Assembly (NCBI GenBank): GCA_963582685.1
Contig: CAUZSM010000001.1
Location: 1-37,705, forward strand
Reading direction: 5' to 3'
Length of the DNA: 37,705 bases
DNA from: Candidatus Thalassarchaeaceae archaeon
GTDB lineage: Archaea > Thermoplasmatota > Poseidoniia > Poseidoniales > Thalassarchaeaceae
Part shown: positions 6,547-27,410 of the stretch, piece after piece
Position numbering within the stretch: the first letter of the stretch is position 1
Layout: each line of letters opens with the position of its first letter
Made by a program: the position numbers and the translations under genes
The notes under the pieces: generated by a model
Told to the model about the DNA's origin: nothing
The model's database searches: none
Seen by the model: only the letters and a program-made list of their open reading frames with translations

Positions 6547-7182
6547 ATGCTTGCGAGGATGCTGATTAAGATTGACCGCCGACTCGATTTCATCGTAATC
6601 CTATACCTGTTTCTCACCATTTTCTGGTTGCTCAATGGGCTTGATAAATTCTTCAACGGAGAGGACATCGTAAACATGGCTGATTATGCACAGAAGTATG
6701 CTATTGTGGATACAAATGGAACGGTCGTGTACGAAGTTCAGGGTATGAATCCCGATGGCTGGTTCGGAGTCAATCGCAATGCCCAGACAATCGGATACTT
6801 TGAGCGGCTAGGCATGCCAGCGAGTTGGGCACTTGGCTCGCTGTACGGTATCGCTGTAATCGAGGTCCTGCTTGGACTCGCCTTCTTCTCGATTCTGTTC
6901 TACAAGCCCTTGCCCGCTAAGGCAATGGAACAAGCACTTGAGGAGAACCGCCTCTTTGCGACGCAAACCATTCATCGACTCGCCTTCAAGGTGAGTTGTC
7001 TCATCTTCGTGAGTTTCATCACAATGGACATCTTATTCGGCGACCGGACCGAATTATGGGAGCATGGAACTTTCCTGATCCTTACCGCAATGACATACCG
7101 ATTCTACATCGACCACGAGCAAATTGAGGCGGTCGAAGAGGAGCAACTCGCAGTTGGTAAGGAGGTTGCCGACGCTACCTAG
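6547..7182 (+). CDS. Hypothetical integral membrane protein (about 4 TM, weak DoxX-like impression)
   Basis: Hydrophobic helices (FIVILYLFLTIFWLLNGLDKF, GIAVIEVLLGLAFFSILF, VSCLIFVSFITMDILF). ATG at 6547; a TTG at 6538 is also possible. Confidence 0.45.
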   Translation: MLARMLIKIDRRLDFIVILYLFLTIFWLLNGLDKFFNGEDIVNMADYAQKYAIVDTNGTVVYEVQGMNPDGWFGVNRNAQTIGYFERLGMPASWALGSLYGIAVIEVLLGLAFFSILFYKPLPAKAMEQALEENRLFATQTIHRLAFKVSCLIFVSFITMDILFGDRTELWEHGTFLILTAMTYRFYIDHEQIEAVEEEQLAVGKEVADAT

Positions 7183-8138
7183 TCGAGCAATTGTCGCAAT
7201 CCATCCTCAAGACTCACAGATGAAGTCCAGCCGATGGCAGAGTGCAAGGCCTGACCATCGCCCACGCTTTCACGCGGGTCACCTTGGCGTGGCGGCTCGT
7301 TGACCACTTCCAGAGATTTACCAAGCGCATTGCCAAGGGTGCTGATAATCTGGTTAAGACTGGTGGAATGACCGCTGCATGAGTTGAATGGACGACCGTG
7401 ACAGGGTGAGGCTTCTCCTTTCTCGACTAGCGAGGATGCCACAGCACACAGCGAAGATACAATGTCTGAAACATGGATGTAATCGCGGGTTTGCTCACCG
7501 TCACCGTACACCGTCAGAGGCTGTCCTGCCTGCGCTCGGTTGGTGAAAATCGTCAAAACACCACTGTAGGATGATGTTGGGTCTTGTCCGGCCCCATAGA
7601 TGTTGAATGGCCGAATTACTGAGAGAGGGAGGCCGCTCTCCGCCATCGCAAGGATTGCAGCGTCGGCCTCTGCCTTGTGTGAGCCATAGGTGCCAATCGG
7701 AACCTGTGGATGATTCTCATCGATGGGGATGATGGTCGGCTCTCCGTAGATGGCTGCGCTACTGACGAAGATGAATGCAGAGACGCCAGCCTGACGTGCC
7801 TCACGAGCCAACTCGATAGCGGCGGCGCGGTTCACCGCTGCGCTCAACTCGGGATTCTCCTCGCACAGTGGAACTGAAGCGATTGCGGCAAGATGCAATA
7901 CTACTTCGGCTCCATCAAGTGCCTCTGCGCGCGTTTCTGCATCTGTCACGCTACCTTCGATGAGGGCGGCACGTGAGTTGAGATGGTCGGTGGTGCCGTT
8001 GGACAGGTCATCGAGAACAACCACATCCGCACCGCCTGCGACAAGTGCATCGACCAGATGGGTGCCGACGAAACCGGCTCCGCCGGTCACTAATACACGA
8101 CGCCCGGTCATAGTGGAATCTGAAGTCATCTGAACCAT
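7179..8138 (-). CDS. NAD-dependent sugar epimerase/dehydratase (UDP-glucose 4-epimerase-like SDR)
   Basis: Rossmann motif VLVTGGAGFVGTHL and catalytic YGSHK (YxxxK). The start could be 8138, 8129 or 8111. Confidence 0.8.
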   Translation of the reverse strand: MVQMTSDSTMTGRRVLVTGGAGFVGTHLVDALVAGGADVVVLDDLSNGTTDHLNSRAALIEGSVTDAETRAEALDGAEVVLHLAAIASVPLCEENPELSAAVNRAAAIELAREARQAGVSAFIFVSSAAIYGEPTIIPIDENHPQVPIGTYGSHKAEADAAILAMAESGLPLSVIRPFNIYGAGQDPTSSYSGVLTIFTNRAQAGQPLTVYGDGEQTRDYIHVSDIVSSLCAVASSLVEKGEASPCHGRPFNSCSGHSTSLNQIISTLGNALGKSLEVVNEPPRQGDPRESVGDGQALHSAIGWTSSVSLEDGLRQLLD

Positions 8139-8164
8139 GACTTGCGGGCATTGCCCTTAGTCAT

Positions 8165-9442
8165 TCACTCCTCTTCTTCGGCTTCCACCAAAACCATCTC
8201 TGGCGCTGAATGTCCTTGATTGTGGTTGATTTCTGCCTCTTCTGCAAGTAGCCTCACTCCACTCTTCTTTCGCAGTTCCTTGCCAGTCTTTGCTCCAAGT
8301 TCACTCAACATCTCTGTTTGTCTAATGACATTACCATCACCACTAATCAGTTGTTTACGTGCCGTTACAAAAGCATCACGGGCCTGATTAATCTCAAATC
8401 CTACCTCTGTAAATGATTCTAGGAACAACACAACCTTGTCGTGAAGAAAACCGGCCCTTTTCACCAACTCAATTTGATTTTGAGATTGATTCTCACGCTT
8501 CCAAATTTCTTGAATAAGCAGCAAAGCGGTCATTATTGTAGAACCACTGACAACCTTGACACGGCGGCTCTCAGTAAGATCTTGATAAAGTTCAGGTTCA
8601 GCACGCATAGCAGTGATGAAAGCGCTCTCTAGAGGAACAACCATCAATACGAAATCAAGCGTGTTAATACTCTCCATATGCTCGTAGTTCTTTGAAGCCA
8701 AGTCTTTAGCATGCTTCTTGATAGAGTCGCAATGGGCCTTCAAGGCAACTTCTGCGGTATCGTCGTCCTCTGCGTTCACATAGGCCTCGTACGCCGTAAG
8801 AGATACCTTGGAATCAATGACGACTTGGCGATTATCAGGTAAATTCAGGACGAAATCAGTTCGTTTGCGCGTCTTATCTACTGCCGTCTCTGAGAATTGC
8901 TTGCTGTAATCACGACCTTCGGTGAATCCCATACTCTGCAACAGGTTCTCGACGACCACTTCACCCCATGCGCCCTGAGCCTGAGAATCTCCCTTAAGGG
9001 CCCTAGTCAAATCGCGAGTTTCCTGAGCAAGTTCCATTCCAAGTTTGCTTACACTACCAACCTCTTTGCTTAGTTCGGCTGCCCGCTTGATATCTGCTTT
9101 CTCCGTTTCCTGAAGAGCCTTGATGTATTCACTCATGCTCTTCGACAAAGCGTCGGTCGCTATTGAGAACGACTTCTCCTTCTCCCCATCAGCATTCTTC
9201 ACTGCGATTTTGAAAGCATCTGCAGCTGCGAGTTCAAACGCGTCTTGCATTTGCTTCCTCATGGTGCCTTTTACTTCAGCAAGTGCTTCTTCGCGAGCGT
9301 CAGCCGCCGCGAGTTTAGCAATGCCATCCGCCTTTGCTGCTTCGACCATTCTAACTGTTCGTTGCGACAATATCGCCCAGACTATTCCAGCTGTTATTAG
9401 GGCGGCGAAGGCAGCTATCGATAGGGTCAGGACTTCCGACAT
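8165..9442 (-). CDS. rmuC: DNA recombination protein RmuC
   Basis: N-terminal TM helix, a long coiled-coil region, and a conserved RmuC core (DFVLNLPDNRQVVIDSKVSLTAYEAY, LDFVLMVVPLESAF). ATG at 9442; GTG at 9451 is the alternative. Confidence 0.8.
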   Translation of the reverse strand: MSEVLTLSIAAFAALITAGIVWAILSQRTVRMVEAAKADGIAKLAAADAREEALAEVKGTMRKQMQDAFELAAADAFKIAVKNADGEKEKSFSIATDALSKSMSEYIKALQETEKADIKRAAELSKEVGSVSKLGMELAQETRDLTRALKGDSQAQGAWGEVVVENLLQSMGFTEGRDYSKQFSETAVDKTRKRTDFVLNLPDNRQVVIDSKVSLTAYEAYVNAEDDDTAEVALKAHCDSIKKHAKDLASKNYEHMESINTLDFVLMVVPLESAFITAMRAEPELYQDLTESRRVKVVSGSTIMTALLLIQEIWKRENQSQNQIELVKRAGFLHDKVVLFLESFTEVGFEINQARDAFVTARKQLISGDGNVIRQTEMLSELGAKTGKELRKKSGVRLLAEEAEINHNQGHSAPEMVLVEAEEEE

Positions 9443-9520
9443 GGGCCACACCTAAACGCCATGGTTCTTGAAGTCTCCACTTCCGTTTCACTGAAGAAGT
9501 ATAGCGCGACCCTTGGCTCC

Positions 9521-10606
9521 ATGCGTAGGCGCAAGGTTGCGATTCTCGGTGGTGGCGGCATCGTCTCTCAGCGATTTCAACAGCGACTGGCTAACCACCC
9601 CTGGTTTGAGTTGGCCGCAGTCGCCGGCTCACCTCGCACCACCGGAAAAGCGCTCAGCGATATCGTGTGGGTTCTACCAGAGCCGCGACCAGCACTACCG
9701 GACCTCACTATACTGGGCATGGACGGACTGATTGAGGCACTCGACGACGTCGAAGTGGTGTTCAGCGGGTTGCCATCTGATGTAGCAGCCCAAATCGAAA
9801 AGCCACTGGCAGAGGCTGGCTTCTTCGTATTCAGCAATGCGTCCACCCACCGGATGGACGACGATGTGCCACTGGTCATCGCTGACCTCAATCCGCATCA
9901 CCTGCTGCCACTGAAAACCAAACTAGCCGCTGGTCAAAGCCAAGGATTCGTCGCCTGTGGCACCAACTGCACCGTGGTACCCGCTGCCCTTCCAATCAAG
10001 CCAATTTGGGACATGATTGGCCTGCGCAAAGTCAGCATCCGCACAGAGCAGGCAACTTCGGGCGGAGGACTCAATTTGCTCGTACGCGCCCGCGAGGAAG
10101 GCAAAGTAGAGCCGGAAATACCCGGTGAGGCAGAGAAGATTGTTGAGGAATGTCGAAGTCTGCTCGGTCGCGCCACTGCTGAACGCTGTACTCAGGCCAA
10201 TATCGTGGTGGATTGCTCCTGTCGAAGGGTGCTGCGTGAATGGGGACATTTAGTTCACGTCGAAGTGCAACTCTCTCGCGAATCTGATGCTGCGGAAGTC
10301 ATCGAATGGGTGAGCAACCATCGTGGTAGAGCACAAGCGCTCAACCTACCATCAGCCCCACAAATTCCAATCATCATTGCAGCAGATATCGATACAGATG
10401 CCGACAGATGGGCAGGTGCTGAATCTGACAACCAAGACCCCTCTACCGACCTGCGAGCCGGGATGGCAGTAGTGATGGCAAACATCGAGGTCGAAGGCCG
10501 CACCCTTCGATTCACCGGTTATTCTGCCAACACGATTCGGGGTGCCGCTGGTGGTACAGTGCTACTAGCAGAACTGGCCGCTGCCGAAGGATTACTCGGA
10601 GAATGA
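9521..10606 (+). CDS. asd: Aspartate-semialdehyde dehydrogenase (archaeal type)
   Basis: VAILGGGGIVSQRFQQRLANHPWFEL N-terminus and an active-site Cys context GTNCTVV. An ASD-like paralog function cannot be excluded. Confidence 0.7.
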   Translation: MRRRKVAILGGGGIVSQRFQQRLANHPWFELAAVAGSPRTTGKALSDIVWVLPEPRPALPDLTILGMDGLIEALDDVEVVFSGLPSDVAAQIEKPLAEAGFFVFSNASTHRMDDDVPLVIADLNPHHLLPLKTKLAAGQSQGFVACGTNCTVVPAALPIKPIWDMIGLRKVSIRTEQATSGGGLNLLVRAREEGKVEPEIPGEAEKIVEECRSLLGRATAERCTQANIVVDCSCRRVLREWGHLVHVEVQLSRESDAAEVIEWVSNHRGRAQALNLPSAPQIPIIIAADIDTDADRWAGAESDNQDPSTDLRAGMAVVMANIEVEGRTLRFTGYSANTIRGAAGGTVLLAELAAAEGLLGE

Positions 10607-22679: not shown

Positions 22680-23870
22680 TCAGTTCATTCCGAACATTAT
22701 CGATATCACAATCATCGATACGAAGAAGAACAGGAAACCCGGGATGATTGCAACCAACATCCCATATGCCGTGCTCTGTTGTTCTGTGACAAAGGAACGC
22801 ACCAGCATACCTATCCATCCTGCAATGAGCAGGAGGGGCATGCAGCAGCCGAGGAAACCCAAGAATATTTCCTCGGCAATCTCTCCGCCTTCTCCTCCGA
22901 ATTCGCTTCCTATTTCATATTCAACCCAGTAATCGGTCTCGTTGTCAGGCTCAAAAGGCAGTGTGAACTCGATATGGCCAGTGGAATAGTCAATTGTGCC
23001 AATACCATTCTGCTCAAAACTGAACCTCAACGGTCGGTTACCGTCGGCATCCTCACCATACCATTCTTTGCAGTAGTAACTATGGGCATCATTTGCAATG
23101 TTCACCTCAATGTCGAACCTATTAAGGTCCATGTTTGAGGTGTTGATGTAAAAGGAAAATGTAGTGTTGACGCCATCAGATATCCAGACATCATTCAACC
23201 ACATGGTCTTACTTCTCCAAGAGCCAGTTTCTTGGTAGATAATTTTCACATTCGCTGCGGTTGAATTGGGGTACACTTCTGGTAGATTGATGGTGATCTG
23301 TTCATTGTCAACATCAAAACTTCCTGAGACAATTTGGGCATCGACATTGATACTTCCGTCACAGTCATCATAAACATAGAGTGAATCTACTTCACCTTGA
23401 ACCGTCACGGCTTGGTTCCCTTTCATTTCATCTTTATCGTCGAAATTAAATGAGCAGGTTCCAATCGGCTCGCCCGCATCAAAGGTGAAGGTGGAGTTGA
23501 CAAAGGAATCACCGCTGACTATTGTCCCTGACCGATTGTCGTCCCATGAGGATTCATGCGATAATTGCAGCCCAAGCGTCAGCATTGCAGCAATAATGAA
23601 TGCAAAACAGATGCCGATTCCTTTCCACCAGGAACCCATGTGCTGTTCAGGAACTGCAACCCCAAGGTGAGGGCCCATGTCACCGCTCAGTTGTGTAACC
23701 TGTCCGGTCAAGGAAGGAGTAACGGCCATTGTATCGGCTTGGGATTCAATGCTCAGTCCGCCGGTAGAGCCGAGAACCAAGGGGCCTGAGGCTGCGGGAG
23801 GGGCTGCTGCGGTATCGCCACCGGTTTGCTCATCCCAAGGTGAGGAGGTACCCTCACTCCCATCGAACAT
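22680..23870 (-). CDS. Hypothetical membrane protein with a sequon-rich external domain
   Basis: The layout is an N-terminal ~80-aa Gly/Ala/Thr-rich region, a TM (GIGICFAFIIAAMLTLGL), a ~250-aa acidic Asn/Asp-rich domain with several N-x-S/T sequons, and then two C-terminal TM helices. No family recognised. Confidence 0.5.
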   Translation of the reverse strand: MFDGSEGTSSPWDEQTGGDTAAAPPAASGPLVLGSTGGLSIESQADTMAVTPSLTGQVTQLSGDMGPHLGVAVPEQHMGSWWKGIGICFAFIIAAMLTLGLQLSHESSWDDNRSGTIVSGDSFVNSTFTFDAGEPIGTCSFNFDDKDEMKGNQAVTVQGEVDSLYVYDDCDGSINVDAQIVSGSFDVDNEQITINLPEVYPNSTAANVKIIYQETGSWRSKTMWLNDVWISDGVNTTFSFYINTSNMDLNRFDIEVNIANDAHSYYCKEWYGEDADGNRPLRFSFEQNGIGTIDYSTGHIEFTLPFEPDNETDYWVEYEIGSEFGGEGGEIAEEIFLGFLGCCMPLLLIAGWIGMLVRSFVTEQQSTAYGMLVAIIPGFLFFFVSMIVISIMFGMN

Positions 23871-23934
23871 AGCAGTCCCTCAACGTTCTCCCTTCAAAGG
23901 GATTCACCTGCAATGAGTGTGTTCGCAACGAGGT

Positions 23935-24615
23935 CTAGTCATCAGTTTCATCGGAATCAACGAGGAGTTTGTCCCATACCGTCGCAGCTAGTACAGCGCC
24001 AATAATCGGTCCAAGCCAATAGATGACAAAGTCAATCTTGTTCTCCATGTCTGAAAACACCCATGTTCCCATCCAGCGAGCCGGGTTCATCGCTGCGCCA
24101 GTGATGCCACCACCCATCAGGATGTCAGCCATCACTGCAAGTCCAATACCAAAGCCAGCAATACCAGCAGGAGCGCGATTATCGACAGCAGTACCCATGA
24201 TTACGGTCATCAGTAGGAATGTCAGCACTATCTCGACTAGGATGACCGTCTGGGTATCGAATAGATTGCCATCCATCTCCTGTGGTGCTGGTGTACCGAC
24301 TCCAGCAGCGCCAACAAGGCATAGTATGCCACCAGCAAGCGCAGCGCCAATCAATTGTGATAGAATGTAATAGCCGCCCAACTTGGGGGTTATTCGCTTG
24401 GTTGACATCAGAGCGAGTGTTACTGCAGGATTGACGTGAGCACCAGAGATGTTCATCGTCGCGCTGACCATCACCGCCAAGATGATGCCGTGAGCAGCCG
24501 CAACAGCCACAATATTGTCACCATGCAACCATATGGTGCCTGCTCCAATGAAGGTCAACCCAAAAGTCGCTATTCCTTCTGCCACACACTTGCTAAGACA
24601 ATTCGATCCACTCAT
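23935..24615 (-). CDS. Aquaporin / MIP family channel (canonical, two NPA motifs)
   Basis: SGAHVNPAVTLA and TGAAMNPARWMG, six TM helices. ATG at 24615 gives the N-terminus MSGSNCLSKCVAEGIATFGLTF, as expected for MIPs. Confidence 0.85.
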   Translation of the reverse strand: MSGSNCLSKCVAEGIATFGLTFIGAGTIWLHGDNIVAVAAAHGIILAVMVSATMNISGAHVNPAVTLALMSTKRITPKLGGYYILSQLIGAALAGGILCLVGAAGVGTPAPQEMDGNLFDTQTVILVEIVLTFLLMTVIMGTAVDNRAPAGIAGFGIGLAVMADILMGGGITGAAMNPARWMGTWVFSDMENKIDFVIYWLGPIIGAVLAATVWDKLLVDSDETDD

Positions 24616-24685
24616 ACACTCAACTCCGGGCACCGGCCCGAAGTGTTCCCTTTGAGTGCAGACCATGAACAAAGCGGTCCATCCG

Positions 24686-24737
24686 AAACAAAAGAAGGGC
24701 CGGTCGAGGGCAACCGAAGTCGCCCAACGACCGGCCC
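24686..24737 (-). terminator. GC-rich hairpin followed by a T-rich tract on the minus strand
   Basis: A perfect 10-bp stem pairs GGGCCGGTCG (24697-24706) with CGACCGGCCC (24728-24737). On the minus strand it is followed by TTCTTTTGTTT, downstream of the CDS ending at 24778. Confidence 0.5.
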
Positions 24738-24777
24738 GTATGTCATCTGTTGTTATGTGTTAGATGAGAGAGTAGTC

Positions 24778-25356
24778 CTACTCTTCTTCTGGCAAGAACT
24801 GGTCGCCGACCATCAGTGCAGCTGCTGCACCGACACCGCCAACAATCATCGAGCCAAATAGCCCGACGAAGTCTGCTTCCCATGCGGAGTTAACCAGTGT
24901 CCCACCGAGGTCAGCGGCACCGGAGATTGACACTCCTGCACCAGCAACGACCGCAGCGAACAAACCAGCTGCCCAGCCTCCACCGAGACGGTCATAGACC
25001 GTCATCAGCAAAAAGCCACCAACGAGGGCTGTAACGGCATCGCCTAGGCTTGCCATTGCACCAACATCGGTTCCTACTGTCCCATCTTGTCCGAACTTAA
25101 TGACCGCAGCAGCTATCAATGCGCCAACTATCTGCATGCAGAAGTTCAGCGCACCAGTTTGCCAGTCAGTCTTGCCAGCGGCCATTGAGCCGATGGTGAT
25201 GACCGGTAGGAGCTGAGCCCCACTGAAGGTCATCCACAACACTGCTAGCACAAGGCCGAGGGTAATCATCTCACTATCTGCCTGGCTGAAAACCAGTAGT
25301 GTGAGAGCCAAGCTACCAACCGCTTCTGCTGTCATCTTTTTCGTGTCCATTTCCAT
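24778..25356 (-). CDS. Divergent MIP/aquaporin-like membrane protein lacking both NPA motifs (paralog A)
   Basis: It aligns by eye to the adjacent aquaporin: AEAVGSLALTLLVF vs AEGIATFGLTFIGA, SGAQLLPVITIG vs SGAHVNPAVTLA, and SGAADLGGTLV vs TGAAMNPARWM. The start MEMDTKK at 25356 has GGGAGG about 8 nt upstream and matches MEMDWKD in paralog B. The longest ORF start is 25374. Confidence 0.6.
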   Translation of the reverse strand: MEMDTKKMTAEAVGSLALTLLVFSQADSEMITLGLVLAVLWMTFSGAQLLPVITIGSMAAGKTDWQTGALNFCMQIVGALIAAAVIKFGQDGTVGTDVGAMASLGDAVTALVGGFLLMTVYDRLGGGWAAGLFAAVVAGAGVSISGAADLGGTLVNSAWEADFVGLFGSMIVGGVGAAAALMVGDQFLPEEE

Positions 25357-25403
25357 TTTCATTTCCTCCCGCATTGCTGCGAGCGTTGCCTCCTCCTTTG
25401 TTC

Positions 25404-25414
25404 TCTATATAAAG
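25404..25414 (-). promoter_or_regulatory. Candidate archaeal TATA box for paralog A
   Basis: The minus strand reads CTTTATATAGA about 50 nt upstream of the 25356 start codon. Confidence 0.35.
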
Positions 25415-25455
25415 TGAGCACCGAGGGAGGAATATGAAAATGCGTTTTTCGACGC

Positions 25456-25525
25456 TTTTTGACGCACCGATACGCCTTATTGCAGTAAGTGTTGCTGGCT
25501 ACACCTACGCCGCAGTACCACGTTT
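25456..25525 (-). promoter_or_regulatory. Conserved upstream block, copy A (imperfect inverted repeat GTGTTG-n4-CTACAC at 25489-25504)
   Basis: A 70-nt block recurs upstream of paralog B. The 29-nt core (25476-25504) matches 26510-26538 at 25 positions by hand alignment. Confidence 0.6.
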
Positions 25526-25666
25526 ATTGGCTAAAAAATGAGTTTTTGTCCTCTCTGGTAGGACCCAATGAATTATTCTGAACGATGATTCTTGTAATCG
25601 ACATATAGTTCGAATCAGTACATGTTGCATTCAGGAACAAGTCTGGAAAAATAACAGCGAGCCCGC

Positions 25667-25692
25667 AGGCAGGGAAAGGTGAGTCCCTGCCT
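25667..25692 (-). terminator. Hairpin plus T5 tract downstream of paralog B
   Basis: A perfect 9-bp stem pairs AGGCAGGGA with TCCCTGCCT around an 8-nt loop. On the minus strand it is followed by ...CTGTTATTTTTCC. A second small inverted repeat CCACAC-CTAA-GTGTGG lies at 25712-25727. Confidence 0.45.
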
Positions 25693-25770
25693 ACGAGCAG
25701 GCGTGTCAACACCACACCTAAGTGTGGTAATCGGTAATCGTTTGTGTTGTGTGTTCCGATTTACTGTGGA

Positions 25771-26382
25771 TCACTTTTCGAGTTCGGCTTCGACGAGGGT
25801 CGCTAACTTAGCACCGACACCGAATGCTACAGCGTTGGCAATGAACATCGCGGCTCCCATTACCTCGAACGCACCACCATCTGCCAAGCCTATCAGCATA
25901 GTACCAAAATGAGCACCGCCAGCAAACACTCCGCCCATTCCTGCAGCAGCTGCAAGTCCAACACCACCAGCTTGATACAAGCCTTCGCAGCGTGTCCAGA
26001 CAGTGTATGTCAAGCCACCACCAACGATTACTGTAACCCAATGTGTTAGGTCAGTTACCATTTCTGTTGGTCCAGAGTATGCAACCATTGTGGCATCGCC
26101 CGTTGTTGCAACCAATGCTAGGACACCAGCGCCTGCGGCGCCGACTACCTGGAATAGCACTTTCATGCCACCTGCTTCCCAATTTTGGTCGTTCAACATC
26201 CTACTTACTGTTAGTGCAGGTATGAGGTCTGCCCCGCTGAATGCGGTCCAAAGCACTGCCAAGGCCAAAGCCCATTCTATCATTCCAAGGTCGCCGTCAG
26301 CGACCCATAGCTTCAGCAGGAGGAAGGTCAGCGCTAGGCTGCCAAACATCTCTGCACAGTTGTCTTTCCAATCCATTTCCAT
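25771..26382 (-). CDS. Divergent MIP/aquaporin-like membrane protein lacking both NPA motifs (paralog B)
   Basis: It shares GSLALT, LAVLW and FSGA blocks with paralog A. The first NPA position reads SGADLIPALT and the second reads GGAHFGTMLIG. AAGGTGA lies about 8 nt upstream of the ATG. Confidence 0.6.
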   Translation of the reverse strand: MEMDWKDNCAEMFGSLALTFLLLKLWVADGDLGMIEWALALAVLWTAFSGADLIPALTVSRMLNDQNWEAGGMKVLFQVVGAAGAGVLALVATTGDATMVAYSGPTEMVTDLTHWVTVIVGGGLTYTVWTRCEGLYQAGGVGLAAAAGMGGVFAGGAHFGTMLIGLADGGAFEVMGAAMFIANAVAFGVGAKLATLVEAELEK

Positions 26383-26488
26383 TTCATTTCACCTTTTCAA
26401 TCGCACATGGCGATTAGGCGCCCATGCCAATTGTTCCACTTATGAAGGATTAGGCGGATATCAGCAATAATCACGGCATTTGTTGAGG

Positions 26489-26558
26489 TTTTTCGGGGGA
26501 CCGGTGTCGCTTATTGCAGTAGGTGTAGTCGGCTACACTTCTTCGCAATATCACGTTT
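26489..26558 (-). promoter_or_regulatory. Conserved upstream block, copy B (perfect inverted repeat GTGTAG-TCGG-CTACAC at 26523-26538)
   Basis: It has the same 70-nt layout as 25456-25525 and the same spacing, with the core about 120-130 nt upstream of the start codon. It directly abuts the fpg stop codon. Confidence 0.6.
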
Positions 26559-27410
26559 TTAGCGTTGGCAAGTCTTACAATGGAAGGTTGAGCGACCCTG
26601 TTGCACTGTTCTAACAATGCTTCCGATGCACCCCTGCTTCAGGCAGGGTTCTCCTTCTCGGTCATAAACTCCGAATGATAAAGGAAAATAACCAAGTTCA
26701 CCGGAAATGTCGCTGAATTGGCCATCCTTGAGTGTGGAGCCGCCTGCTGCAATAGCCTCACCCAATACCTTTGGGATGTGCTCAACCAAGCGAGTTGCTT
26801 CCTCGACGCTTATTGATGCAGCCTCCTTAGTGGGGGCGATTCCGGCACGGTGCAGAATCTCGCAGACGTAGATGTTGCCAAGTCCAGCGATGGTGCGCTG
26901 GTCGAGCAGGGCAACCTTGACCGGAGTGCGTCTGTTCTGCAAAGAGGAGACAAGACCCGGTGCGCTAAGTTCGTCTGAGAGCGGTTCTGGACCTAATGAG
27001 CGCAAGAAACGGTTGTCCTGTTGCTGTTCCGTGTCAAATAAATCGATGAAACCGAATCTGCGAGCATCTGTGTAGATGGCTCGGCGACCGCCTTCGAGTT
27101 CGATTACAAGGTGGTCATGCTTGCCGTCACCGACATCCTGCTCGCCTGACGAATCCTCTCCGACAAGCCGCCAGCGCCCAGTCATCCCTAGATGCGACAG
27201 CATGGTCATGTCATCGTTGAGGCGGACGAGGATGTATTTCGCTCGCCTATCCACCGCTTCTACAATCCGGCCCTCAAGTCGAATCGACAAATCTTCAGGA
27301 AATGGGAATCGCAGATCCGGTCGCCTGACTCGCACTGTACCGATTCGGCGACCGACCAGATGCGCTGCCAAACCGGTTCGAACCGTCTCTACCTCAGGGA
27401 GTTCGGGCAT
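26559..27410 (-). CDS. mutM: Formamidopyrimidine-DNA glycosylase (Fpg/MutM, Fpg/Nei family)
   Basis: Invariant N-terminus MPELPEVE, an H2TH region, and a C-terminal zinc finger CLKQGC...CKTCQ. Confidence 0.85.
   Translation of the reverse strand: MPELPEVETVRTGLAAHLVGRRIGTVRVRRPDLRFPFPEDLSIRLEGRIVEAVDRRAKYILVRLNDDMTMLSHLGMTGRWRLVGEDSSGEQDVGDGKHDHLVIELEGGRRAIYTDARRFGFIDLFDTEQQQDNRFLRSLGPEPLSDELSAPGLVSSLQNRRTPVKVALLDQRTIAGLGNIYVCEILHRAGIAPTKEAASISVEEATRLVEHIPKVLGEAIAAGGSTLKDGQFSDISGELGYFPLSFGVYDREGEPCLKQGCIGSIVRTVQQGRSTFHCKTCQR

What the first reader, a model, noticed from the sequence alone, without database searches (positions are those of the whole stretch)
23935..26382. Tandem trio of MIP-fold genes: one canonical aquaporin plus two divergent paralogs that lost both NPA motifs
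Three same-strand genes lie head to tail. The first (23935-24615) has both NPA boxes. The other two (about 192 and 203 aa) align to it helix by helix, but the pore-defining motifs are replaced. In paralog A, NPA1 reads LLPVIT and NPA2 reads DLGGTL. In paralog B, NPA1 reads LIPALT and NPA2 reads HFGTML. The paralogs are unusually Gly/Ala-rich and share MEMD N-termini and GSLALT/LAVLW/FSGA blocks. From established knowledge, the two Asn residues of the NPA boxes form the central selectivity and proton-exclusion site of aquaporins and glyceroporins. Losing both therefore implies a different substrate or a non-channel role. Each gene has its own terminator-like hairpin, so the three are probably separate transcription units.
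Basis: partly seen in the sequence, partly recalled or inferred. Interest (0 to 1): 0.7.

Follow-up and report, generated by a model that had tools for sequence, protein, structure and literature searches.

The report
Aquaporin-fold genes lacking pore motifs
Next to an ordinary archaeal water-channel gene sit two old, well-preserved relatives that keep the aquaporin fold but have lost every residue that makes an aquaporin selective; they form a small uncharacterised family in abundant marine archaea and almost certainly do something other than conduct water in the classical way.

Summary
Three minus-strand genes lie head to tail.
- 24615..23935 is a canonical AqpM-like MIP with NPA/NPA.
- Paralog A is 25356..24778 (192 aa).
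- Paralog B is 26382..25771 (203 aa).

A and B are true MIP-superfamily members. They match MIP profiles, and their AlphaFold models (pLDDT 88) have six TM helices plus two half-helices. The listed top 50 Foldseek PDB matches are all aquaporins.

Both lack the pore signature.
- NPA1 is L/I-P-x in 41 of 41 relatives.
- NPA2 and the ar/R arginine are replaced by small residues in a shortened loop E.
- The TM4 glutamate is gone.

They are not pseudogenes. dN/dS is 0.13 for A and 0.28 for B. Intact orthologs exist down to about 44% identity. The NPA-less clade is monophyletic (bootstrap 100) and splits into old A and B lineages. The B-A-aquaporin trio recurs in a lineage where the aquaporin itself is only 54% identical.

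All genome hits come from Poseidoniales, where classified further Thalassarchaeaceae or Marine Group II. Databases name the proteins "hypothetical". No paper was found.

Function is inferred, not shown. The most likely reading is an apolar, uncharged pore for small neutral or gaseous solutes. The main rival is a non-conducting partner subunit. I rate it a new variant of a known kind, of moderate interest.

The parts
23935..24615 (-). Canonical AqpM-like MIP channel gene (226 aa). It has NPA at residues 62 and 177. By alignment its ar/R filter is H-I-A-R.
   Evidence: Pfam MIP 147.8 bits. Best solved relative is AqpM 2evu, E 4.5e-29, and that alignment gives the ar/R positions. dN/dS is 0.034 against L001.
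24778..25356 (-). Paralog A, an NPA-less MIP-fold protein (192 aa from MEMD; alternative in-frame ATGs at 25362 and 25374). L50-P51-V52 replaces NPA1. About S145-G146-A147 replaces NPA2. A148 replaces the ar/R Arg.
   Evidence: Pfam MIP 27.3 bits against a cutoff of 25, residues 37-124 only. Canonical-only HMM E 1e-18. AF2 pLDDT 87.6, eight helices. Foldseek: the listed top 50 are all aquaporins, TM-score 0.65-0.80. dN/dS 0.128. 15 homologs at 49-92% identity.
25771..26382 (-). Paralog B, an NPA-less MIP-fold protein (203 aa). I54-P55-A56 replaces NPA1. About A154-G155-G156 replaces NPA2. There is no Arg.
   Evidence: No Pfam or NCBIfam hit. Canonical-only HMM E 2.6e-11. AF2 pLDDT 87.9. Foldseek: the listed top 50 are all aquaporins, including AqpM 2evu at TM-score 0.74. 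dN/dS 0.281. Homologs at 57-89% identity.
24686..24737 (-). Terminator-like hairpin after A. Outer stem GGGCCGGTCG/CGACCGGCCC with an inner stem, followed by UUCUUUUGUUU.
   Evidence: MFE -37.2 kcal/mol, z -6.5, 0 of 200 shuffles as stable. Also flagged by the pattern scan.
25640..25728 (-). Terminator-like hairpins after B, followed by UUAUUUUU.
   Evidence: Fold of 25770..25640: -52.9 kcal/mol, z -5.6. The part coordinates were read by hand from that fold.
25406..25413 (-). TATA-like box TTTATATA, 50-57 nt upstream of the start of A.
   Evidence: Sequence. TTTAWATA is present at the aligned position in 15 of 16 species and its TTA core is invariant in all 16.
26438..26446 (-). TATA-like box TTCATAAGT, 56-64 nt upstream of the start of B.
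   Evidence: Sequence. The same 9-mer lies upstream of the B-type genes in L010 and L026.
24663..24673 (-). Promoter-like box TTTGTTCATGG, 48-58 nt upstream of the aquaporin start.
   Evidence: Sequence. TTGTTCATAG or a close variant recurs upstream of the canonical gene in most of the other loci listed.
26476..26559 (-). Copy 1 of a duplicated ~85-nt non-coding block. It starts at the Fpg stop codon and ends about 30 nt before the TATA-like box of B. It contains the palindrome GTGTAG-N4-CTACAC and TACTGCAATAAG.
   Evidence: Pairwise alignment. nhmmer 76 bits. The 12-mer occurs twice against 0.05 expected.
25442..25527 (-). Copy 2 of the same block, about 29 nt before the TATA box of A.
   Evidence: nhmmer 86 bits.

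Best explanation
**Shown.** Paralogs A and B belong to a small, old, selectively maintained clade of the major intrinsic protein (MIP/aquaporin) superfamily. Every genome hit comes from Poseidoniales (Marine Group II archaea); those classified further are Thalassarchaeaceae. The clade arose from an AqpM-like ancestor, split early into an A lineage and a B lineage, and has stayed beside the canonical channel gene.

The proteins keep the aquaporin architecture of six TM helices and two re-entrant half-helices. The N-terminal half is nearly canonical: the TM1 Glu, the S-G-A carbonyl stretch of loop B, the Pro and Thr of 'NPAVT', and the TM3 Gln-x-x-Gly. Every polar selectivity element is gone.
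- NPA1 Asn is Leu or Ile.
- NPA2 is Ser/Ala/Gly - Gly/Ser/Thr - Ala.
- The ar/R Arg is Ala or Ser.
- The TM4 Glu is lost.
- TM2 is shorter by 3 residues and TM5/loop E by about 8.

**Inferred.** Without the two Asn donors and the Arg, the proteins cannot work as classical water or glycerol channels with proton and cation exclusion. The most likely mechanism is a tetrameric channel whose monomer pore is apolar and uncharged. Such a pore would pass small neutral, weakly polar or gaseous solutes (for example O2, CO2 or NH3) rather than a hydrogen-bonded water file.

A and B have their own promoters and terminators. In this lineage they share a duplicated upstream block, so they are probably co-regulated with each other but transcribed separately from the aquaporin.
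For: **Sequence membership.**
- Pfam MIP hit for A.
- A profile built only from NPA-less proteins reaches NPA-bearing MIPs at E 1e-7 to 1e-3.
- A canonical-only HMM gives A E 1e-18 and B E 2.6e-11.

**Fold.** AF2 pLDDT 87.6 and 87.9, pTM 0.85 and 0.86, helix pattern TM1-TM2-HB-TM3-TM4-TM5-HE-TM6. The listed top 50 Foldseek PDB matches for each model are all aquaporins, probability 1.00, TM-score 0.63-0.80.

**Motif loss across the clade.** L/I at N1 and Pro at P1 in 41 of 41 sequences. None has N-P or Arg in the second motif. The TM1 Glu and TM3 Gln are almost invariant (39 and 40 of 41). The TM4 Glu is absent.

**Selection and age.**
- dN/dS is 0.128 for A and 0.281 for B, within the range of the flanking genes (0.095-0.335).
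- NJ tree: the NPA-less clade has bootstrap 100, A 83, B 93.
- The trio recurs in L035-L037 with B 44%, A 44% and the aquaporin 54% identical to the window proteins.
- A second NPA-less gene sits directly upstream of A in L010 and L026.

**Distribution.** All 19 genome loci are Poseidoniales; those classified further are Thalassarchaeaceae or Marine Group II.

**Transcription units.**

**Background from the literature.** The Asn is kept even in aberrant NPA variants and is tied to cation blockage (PMC8355241). A prokaryotic MIP subfamily is reported to import oxygen (PMC8406300).
Against: - An open apolar pore is therefore not shown. A hydrophobic, Gly/Ala-rich and shortened pore could equally be collapsed or dewetted.
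- The AF2 alignments included six canonical MIPs. This may bias the models toward the canonical fold.
- Alignment of the C-terminal half is unstable, so the assignments for NPA2 and the ar/R positions are uncertain by about two residues.
- The need for protein gas channels in very small cells is debatable.
- dN/dS rests on a single pair of sequences.
- The NJ tree does not resolve the sister group (bootstrap 33).
Confidence: 0.6

Rival explanations
1. A and B are non-conducting (closed-pore) MIP subunits. They co-assemble with the neighbouring AqpM-like channel, or with each other, into heterotetramers. They would tune its activity, stability or localisation, as plant PIP1/PIP2 heteromers do.
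For: - An A-type gene and a canonical MIP gene lie on the same strand about 0.2-4 kb apart in nearly every locus with enough flank.
- The scaffold-forming N-terminal half is conserved while the pore elements are lost.
- Very Gly/Ala-rich helices favour tight packing.
Against: - The genes have separate promoters and terminators.
- In most species three unrelated genes lie between A and the aquaporin.
- Two loci show no canonical gene within 7-8 kb downstream (L012, L026).
- The divergent relative P0158 stands alone elsewhere in the genome.
- The whole neighbourhood is syntenic (Nop, fibrillarin, Fpg ... IcmF), so linkage may only reflect origin by tandem duplication.
- Oligomer modelling could not be run.
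Confidence: 0.25
2. A and B are ion-conducting MIP derivatives. Loss of the NPA dipole and Asn barrier and of the ar/R Arg removes the electrostatic block to cations or protons.
For: The literature ties the Asn to cation blockage (PMC8355241). Both Asn and the Arg are gone in all members.
Against: - The replacements are hydrophobic or tiny (Leu/Ile, Ala, Gly, Ser).
- No conserved charged or polar coordinating residue appears along the presumed pore. D149 of A is not conserved.
- A purely apolar narrow pore disfavours ions.
Confidence: 0.07
3. A and B are decaying duplicates (pseudogenes) of the aquaporin with no function.
For: Loss of all signature motifs. B has no Pfam hit. B has the highest dN/dS of the three genes (0.28).
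Against: - Intact full-length orthologs exist down to about 44-50% identity in many species.
- dN/dS is well below 1 and within the range of neighbouring genes.
- Many positions are invariant.
- Promoter boxes are conserved.
- The clade is monophyletic with two old sublineages.
Confidence: 0.02
4. A and B belong to a different family with only a superficial resemblance, for example FNT channels or an unrelated six-TM family.
For: Low pairwise identity to aquaporins (15-22% in Foldseek alignments). B has no Pfam hit.
Against: The listed top 50 structural matches for each model are all aquaporins. Profile and HMM links to NPA-bearing MIPs are significant. Conserved MIP-specific residues are retained: TM1 Glu, S-G-A-x-x-x-P-x-x-T, and TM3 Q-x-x-G.
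Confidence: 0.02

Closest known systems
AqpM, the archaeal aquaporin of Methanothermobacter (PDB 2evu/2f2b), and the AqpM-like gene in this window
   Same: Same fold and the same superfamily. The neighbouring gene's best solved relative is AqpM. AqpM is among the top structural matches of model B. The TM1 Glu, loop B and TM3 Q-x-x-G are shared.
   Different: AqpM has NPA/NPA, ar/R F-I-S-R and the TM4 Glu. A and B have L/I-P-x, no second motif, no Arg, no TM4 Glu, and are 20-35 residues shorter, with TM2 and TM5/loop E trimmed.
Unorthodox MIPs with aberrant NPA boxes: AQP11/12 and plant SIPs (from general knowledge), and Trypanosoma brucei AQP2 (NSA/NPS with ar/R IVLL; PMC8355241)
   Same: MIP fold with non-canonical signature motifs. 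TbAQP2 also lacks the ar/R Arg and has an altered substrate range.
   Different: All of these keep the Asn of both motifs (PMC8355241 stresses this for TbAQP2). A and B have lost both Asn. The others are eukaryotic.
Segniliparus rotundus AQP, with TPV and VPA in place of the two NPA motifs (PMC6912568)
   Same: A prokaryotic MIP in which both Asn are replaced.
   Different: It is mentioned in that review only as a variant of one bacterium. It still has Pro in both motifs. The present case is a whole archaeal clade with two old paralog lineages, no Pro in the second motif and a shortened loop E. No homology test against it was run here.
Pneumococcal AqpC subfamily, reported to import oxygen (PMC8406300)
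   Same: A precedent for a prokaryotic MIP subfamily whose physiological substrate is a gas rather than water or glycerol.
   Different: This is a functional analogy only. It was not compared by sequence here, and I did not read the paper's motif details.
Intermediate marine MIPs P0060 and P0066 (NPA / NPG, no Arg)
   Same: They share the K-x-D-x-Q-T/V-G turn after half-helix B and the D-Q-x-x-x-E-E(-E) C-terminus with A-type proteins. They lie near the NPA-less clade in the tree.
   Different: They keep both Asn and a full-length loop E. P0060 lies in an unrelated gene neighbourhood (P0066 was not looked up). The sister relationship is not supported (bootstrap 33).

Membership tests
MIP superfamily (Pfam PF00230 / TCDB 1.A.8) | Significant sequence similarity to MIP profiles | tested here: met
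   A: Pfam 27.3 bits against a cutoff of 25, partial match. Canonical-only HMM: A E 1e-18, B E 2.6e-11. The NPA-less profile hits NPA-bearing MIPs. B alone fails Pfam and NCBIfam.
MIP superfamily (Pfam PF00230 / TCDB 1.A.8) | Six TM helices plus two re-entrant half-helices (the aquaporin fold) | tested here: met
   AF2 DSSP shows eight helices in the canonical order, pLDDT about 88. In Foldseek the listed top 50 are all aquaporins, TM-score 0.63-0.80. Caveat: this is a prediction, and the alignment contained canonical MIPs.
MIP superfamily (Pfam PF00230 / TCDB 1.A.8) | Conserved TM1 Glu and TM4 Glu that buttress loops B and E | tested here: inconclusive
   The TM1 Glu is almost invariant (39 of 41). 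The TM4 Glu is replaced by Ala, Gly or other residues in all members.
MIP superfamily (Pfam PF00230 / TCDB 1.A.8) | Homotetramer with one pore per monomer | not testable with these tools
   No multimer modelling and no model coordinates were available.
Functional aquaporins / aquaglyceroporins (AqpZ, AqpM, GlpF type) | Two NPA (Asn-Pro-Ala) motifs meeting at the pore centre | tested here: not met
   NPA1 is L/I-P-x in 41 of 41. NPA2 is replaced by [A/S/G]-[S/T/G]-A or is not alignable. No Asn occurs at either position.
Functional aquaporins / aquaglyceroporins (AqpZ, AqpM, GlpF type) | Aromatic/arginine selectivity filter with a conserved Arg after NPA2 | tested here: not met
   The Arg position is Ala or Ser. 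The TM5/loop E segment carrying H5 and LE1 is about 8 residues shorter.
Functional aquaporins / aquaglyceroporins (AqpZ, AqpM, GlpF type) | Water or glycerol conductance with proton exclusion | not testable with these tools
   Needs proteoliposome or oocyte assays.
AqpM-like archaeal aquaporin (applies to gene 23935-24615 only) | NPA/NPA, Arg in ar/R, and a best match to AqpM | tested here: met
   Pfam 147.8 bits. AqpM 2evu E 4.5e-29. The ar/R filter is H-I-A-R rather than AqpM's F-I-S-R. The score is below the NCBIfam TIGR00861 cutoff (131 against 171).

The most novel reading that the evidence does not exclude
The NPA-less clade is a new functional class of MIP-fold proteins, found here only in Marine Group II (Poseidoniales) archaea. 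Either its apolar, Asn-free and Arg-free pore conducts a gas or another non-aqueous small solute, or the fold has been re-used for a non-channel membrane role. The A and B lineages would be an obligate, co-regulated pair.
Probability: 0.3. Interest if true: 0.75.

Novelty: new variant of a known kind. Interest (0 to 1): 0.55.

Why it matters
The two NPA asparagines and the ar/R arginine are treated as the near-universal mechanistic core of the aquaporin superfamily. This clade has discarded all of them, yet it has been kept under purifying selection for a long time in one of the most abundant archaeal groups of the surface ocean. It is a natural experiment on what the aquaporin fold can do without its canonical pore chemistry.

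It offers concrete, small proteins (about 190-200 aa) for testing gas or apolar-solute conduction, or regulatory heteromerisation.

It also corrects annotation. NCBI lists these proteins as hypothetical, and JGI calls them 'glycerol uptake facilitator-like aquaporin'. That name is unlikely to describe their function.

Tried and rejected
1. **Pseudogene hypothesis.** Rejected by dN/dS and by intact orthologs.
2. **Non-MIP family.** Rejected by Foldseek and HMM results.
3. **Rfam scan of 23700-26700.** The only hit was a weak snoR9 match inside the coding region of A (23.5 bits against a gathering score of 90, E 0.013). I treat it as chance.
4. **Structured RNA in the duplicated 85-nt upstream block.** Copy 1 folds better than shuffles (z -3.35) but copy 2 does not (z -0.65). 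There is no case for a conserved RNA structure, so a DNA-level element or recent duplication is more likely.
5. **Covariation in the leader hairpin of A-type genes.** 85% of cells pair, but only 2 cells change on both sides, and the shuffles are not clearly exceeded. This is weak.
6. **Sigma-70 promoter scan.** It found no more sites than shuffles give, and it is not appropriate for archaea. I read TATA-like boxes from the alignments instead.
7. **Pore-radius inspection of the AF2 models.** Model coordinates are not exposed to the script environment.
9. **Literature.** No paper combines aquaporin with Poseidoniales or Marine Group II. The phrase search 'lack both NPA' found nothing.
10. **First tree script.** It timed out and was redone with numpy distances.
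11. **Context of P0060.** It lies in an unrelated neighbourhood and told me nothing about function.
Full report
**1. What is in the sequence**

The region holds three minus-strand ORFs head to tail.
- B is 26382..25771 (203 aa).
- A is 25374/25356..24778 (198 aa, or 192 aa from the conserved MEMD start).
- The third gene, 24615..23935 (226 aa), is a normal MIP channel.

Evidence for the third gene:
- It scores 147.8 bits against Pfam PF00230 and has NPA at residues 62 and 177.
- Its best solved relative is AqpM, E 4.5e-29.
- By that alignment its ar/R filter reads H-I-A-R.

A and B are 39% identical over their N-terminal 135 residues (E 7e-15). Each aligns weakly but significantly to the aquaporin (E 5e-5 and 2e-6). 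Gly+Ala is 31% in A and B against 26% in the aquaporin.

**2. Are A and B really MIP-fold proteins?**

Yes, on three independent lines.
- *Profiles.* A passes Pfam MIP marginally (27.3 bits against a cutoff of 25, residues 37-124 only). B has no Pfam or NCBIfam hit. A profile built only from NPA-less homologs (alignment A1) was searched against 1.84 billion representatives. It finds first the NPA-less family and then, at E 1e-7 to 1e-3, dozens of ordinary NPA-bearing MIPs.
- *Reverse test.* An HMM built only from 48 canonical MIPs scores A at E 1e-18 and B at E 2.6e-11.
- *Structure.* AlphaFold2 models have pLDDT 87.6 and 87.9 and pTM 0.85 and 0.86. Their helix order is TM1-TM2-half helix-TM3-TM4-TM5-half helix-TM6. 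The listed top 50 Foldseek PDB matches for each model are all aquaporins, at probability 1.00 and TM-score 0.63-0.80.

One caveat applies. The alignments given to AlphaFold contained six canonical MIPs.

**3. What has been lost**

I examined 41 non-redundant NPA-less sequences.
- The Asn of NPA1 is Leu or Ile in all 41. The Pro and the following Thr are kept.
- The TM1 Glu, the S/G-A stretch of loop B and the TM3 Q-x-x-G are kept.
- The second half is remodelled. No member has Asn-Pro or the ar/R Arg.
- The most consistent alignment puts [S/A/G]-[G/S/T]-A at NPA2 and Ala or Ser at the Arg position. In A these are S145-G146-A147 and A148. In B they are about A154-G155-G156 and A157.
- The TM4 Glu is gone.
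- TM2 is 3 residues shorter and TM5/loop E about 8 residues shorter than in canonical MIPs.

The conclusion that there is no NPA2 still stands.

**4. Not pseudogenes: a conserved clade**

*Homologs.* Word-index searches found 15 A-type homologs (49-92% identity) and 5 B-type homologs (57-89%). All are full length except fragments from short contigs.

*Selection.* dN/dS between the window and its closest relative L001:

| Gene | dN/dS |
|---|---|
| aquaporin | 0.034 |
| A | 0.128 |
| B | 0.281 |
| Fpg | 0.095 |
| SCO1 | 0.136 |
| downstream 395-aa gene | 0.335 |

*Phylogeny.* A neighbour-joining tree of 75 sequences makes the NPA-less proteins monophyletic (bootstrap 100). They split into an A lineage (83) and a B lineage (93). 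The B lineage includes a divergent 'GAHILP' group. The sister group among canonical MIPs is unresolved (33).

*Distribution.* All 19 species-level genome hits are Poseidoniales MAGs; those classified further are Thalassarchaeaceae or Marine Group II.

*Annotation.* Sources name the proteins 'hypothetical protein' (NCBI) or 'glycerol uptake facilitator-like aquaporin' (JGI).

**5. Genomic context**

The neighbourhood is archaeal and syntenic: PCNA, TFIIS, Nop56/58, fibrillarin, (SCO1), Fpg, [B], A..., canonical MIP..., and an IcmF-like mutase.
- An A-type gene follows Fpg in every locus where the upstream flank is available.
- A canonical MIP lies about 0.2-4 kb downstream on the same strand in nearly all loci with enough flank. 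L012 and L026 are exceptions within 7-8 kb.
- In many species three unrelated genes sit between A and the aquaporin: LGT-like, radical SAM, and a 380-aa protein.
- The full trio B-A-aquaporin recurs in the L035-L037 lineage. There B and A are about 44% identical and the aquaporin 54% identical to the window proteins.
- A second NPA-less gene directly precedes A in L010 and L026.
- One divergent relative (P0158) stands alone elsewhere in the genome.

The arrangement is therefore old. It looks like retained tandem duplicates rather than an operon.

**6. Transcription signals**

- A is followed by a very stable hairpin (-37.2 kcal/mol, z -6.5) and UUCUUUUGUUU.
- B is followed by hairpins (z -5.6) and UUAUUUUU.
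- The aquaporin has no convincing terminator before the next gene, which starts 64 nt downstream.
- Each gene has a conserved promoter-like box 50-65 nt upstream of its start.
  - A has TTTAWATA, present in 15 of 16 species with its TTA core invariant in all 16.
  - B has TTCATAAGT, shared with the B-type genes of L010 and L026.
  - The aquaporin has TTGTTCATAG or a close variant in most of the loci listed.

**7. Mechanism (inference)**

In established aquaporin mechanism, three elements matter (PMC6912568, PMC8355241, and general knowledge).
- The two Asn side chains donate hydrogen bonds to the permeant at the pore centre.
- The half-helix dipoles and the ar/R Arg give proton and cation exclusion.
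- The ar/R ring sets the size and polarity filter.

All of these are replaced here by Leu, Ile, Ala, Gly or Ser, and the filter-bearing segment is physically shortened. The loop B carbonyl stretch and the overall scaffold are kept under selection.

I consider the most likely function a channel with an apolar, uncharged pore for small neutral or gaseous solutes. My probability for that specific function is about 0.35. Identity as a divergent, functional MIP clade is at least 0.9.

The main rival is a closed-pore subunit that heteromerises with the neighbouring aquaporin or with the other paralog (about 0.25). Ion conduction (about 0.07), pseudogenes and a non-MIP family (about 0.02 each) are unlikely.

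I could not compute pore radii or model oligomers.

**8. Comparison with what is known**

- Aberrant NPA variants are well known: AQP11/12, SIPs, and TbAQP2 with NSA/NPS and an Arg-less filter. They retain the Asn (PMC8355241).
- A review of prokaryotic aquaporins lists a single Segniliparus protein with TPV/VPA (PMC6912568).
- A pneumococcal subfamily is reported to import oxygen (PMC8406300).
- I found no paper linking aquaporins with Poseidoniales or Marine Group II.

The present clade belongs to the MIP superfamily by fold and sequence. It fails the defining features of functional aquaporins and aquaglyceroporins. I therefore file it as a new variant within a known superfamily, not as an aquaporin.

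**9. Verdict**

- Novelty: new variant of a known kind.
- Interest is moderate (0.55). A specialist would find a conserved Asn-free, Arg-free MIP clade in abundant ocean archaea notable. Its function remains conjecture until it is assayed.

Noticed in passing
window 26476-26559 (-) and 25442-25527 (-): An ~85-nt non-coding block is present twice at about 75% identity, far above the 39% protein identity of A and B. Copy 1 begins at the Fpg stop codon, upstream of B. Copy 2 lies upstream of A. Each ends about 30 nt before the TATA-like box. Both share TACTGCAATAAG (2 matches against 0.05 expected) and a GTGTAG...CTACAC-type palindrome. Both copies also occur in the L001 lineage. Only weak matches occur in L019, L026 and L016. 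Only copy 1 folds better than shuffles. Possible readings are a shared operator or upstream promoter element, or a recent duplication or gene conversion.
   Followed up: partly
window 25357-25413 (-); aligned leaders of 16 species (alignment A5): The leader of A-type genes is strongly conserved at the nucleotide level across species whose proteins are only about 50% identical. It holds a TATA box and then GCTCGA-loop-TCGAGC directly before an AGGA(T)G Shine-Dalgarno-like motif. 85% of cells pair but covariation is weak. In many species an out-of-frame ATG 9 nt upstream opens a 5-codon mini-ORF (ATGAAAAAATGGAAATGA) that overlaps the real start.
   Followed up: partly
window 23935-24615 (-): By alignment to AqpM (F62/I187/S196/R202), the canonical aquaporin has ar/R H-I-A-R. 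From my own knowledge this combination is typical of plant TIPs, some of which pass ammonia or urea, and it differs from AqpM's F-I-S-R. The gene scores below the NCBIfam MIP cutoff (131 against 171 bits).
   Followed up: partly
window 24616-24680 (-); upstream regions of canonical MIP genes in L011, L013, L015, L018, L022, L027 and others: In other species the canonical gene's leader carries a perfect 8-bp inverted repeat, TCTGAATC-N4-GATTCAGA, just before the start codon. At the same place the window has a different 5-bp hairpin, CGGGC-CGGT-GCCCG. This may be a compensated leader hairpin. It was not tested formally.
   Followed up: no
P0060 and P0066; P0060 at loci L029-L031 (gene at 6001-6654 in L029 and L030, 3877-4530 in L031): Marine MIPs with NPA / NPG and no ar/R Arg. 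They share the K-x-D-x-Q-T/V-G turn and the D-Q-x-x-x-E-E(-E) tail with A-type proteins. They may be evolutionary intermediates (Arg lost before Asn). P0060 lies in an unrelated gene neighbourhood; P0066 was not looked up. The tree does not support sisterhood (bootstrap 33).
   Followed up: partly
window 22680-23870 (-): A 396-aa acidic membrane-anchored protein with no Pfam or NCBIfam family starts 64 nt after the aquaporin stop, with no terminator between them. Counterparts of 395-404 aa occupy the same position in L001 and L035. dN/dS is 0.335. It may be co-transcribed with the aquaporin.
   Followed up: no
L005-L009, about 6727-10097: In many Thalassarchaeaceae, three genes are inserted between the A-type gene and the canonical MIP: an LGT-like protein (prolipoprotein diacylglyceryl transferase family), a 500-aa radical SAM protein with a Zn_ribbon_HMPTM domain, and a 380-aa protein without a family. 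They are absent from the window lineage.
   Followed up: no
L032-L034 (gene at 1688-2305 in L032): The divergent 'GAHLLP' relative P0158 is not next to Fpg or an aquaporin. It sits between a 313-aa and an 81-aa hypothetical gene, near a TspO/MBR gene. The NPA-less family has therefore also dispersed in the genome.
   Followed up: no
window 25206-25315 (-): A weak Rfam match to the C/D-box snoR9 lies inside the coding region of paralog A (23.5 bits against a gathering score of 90, E 0.013). It is most likely chance.
   Followed up: no
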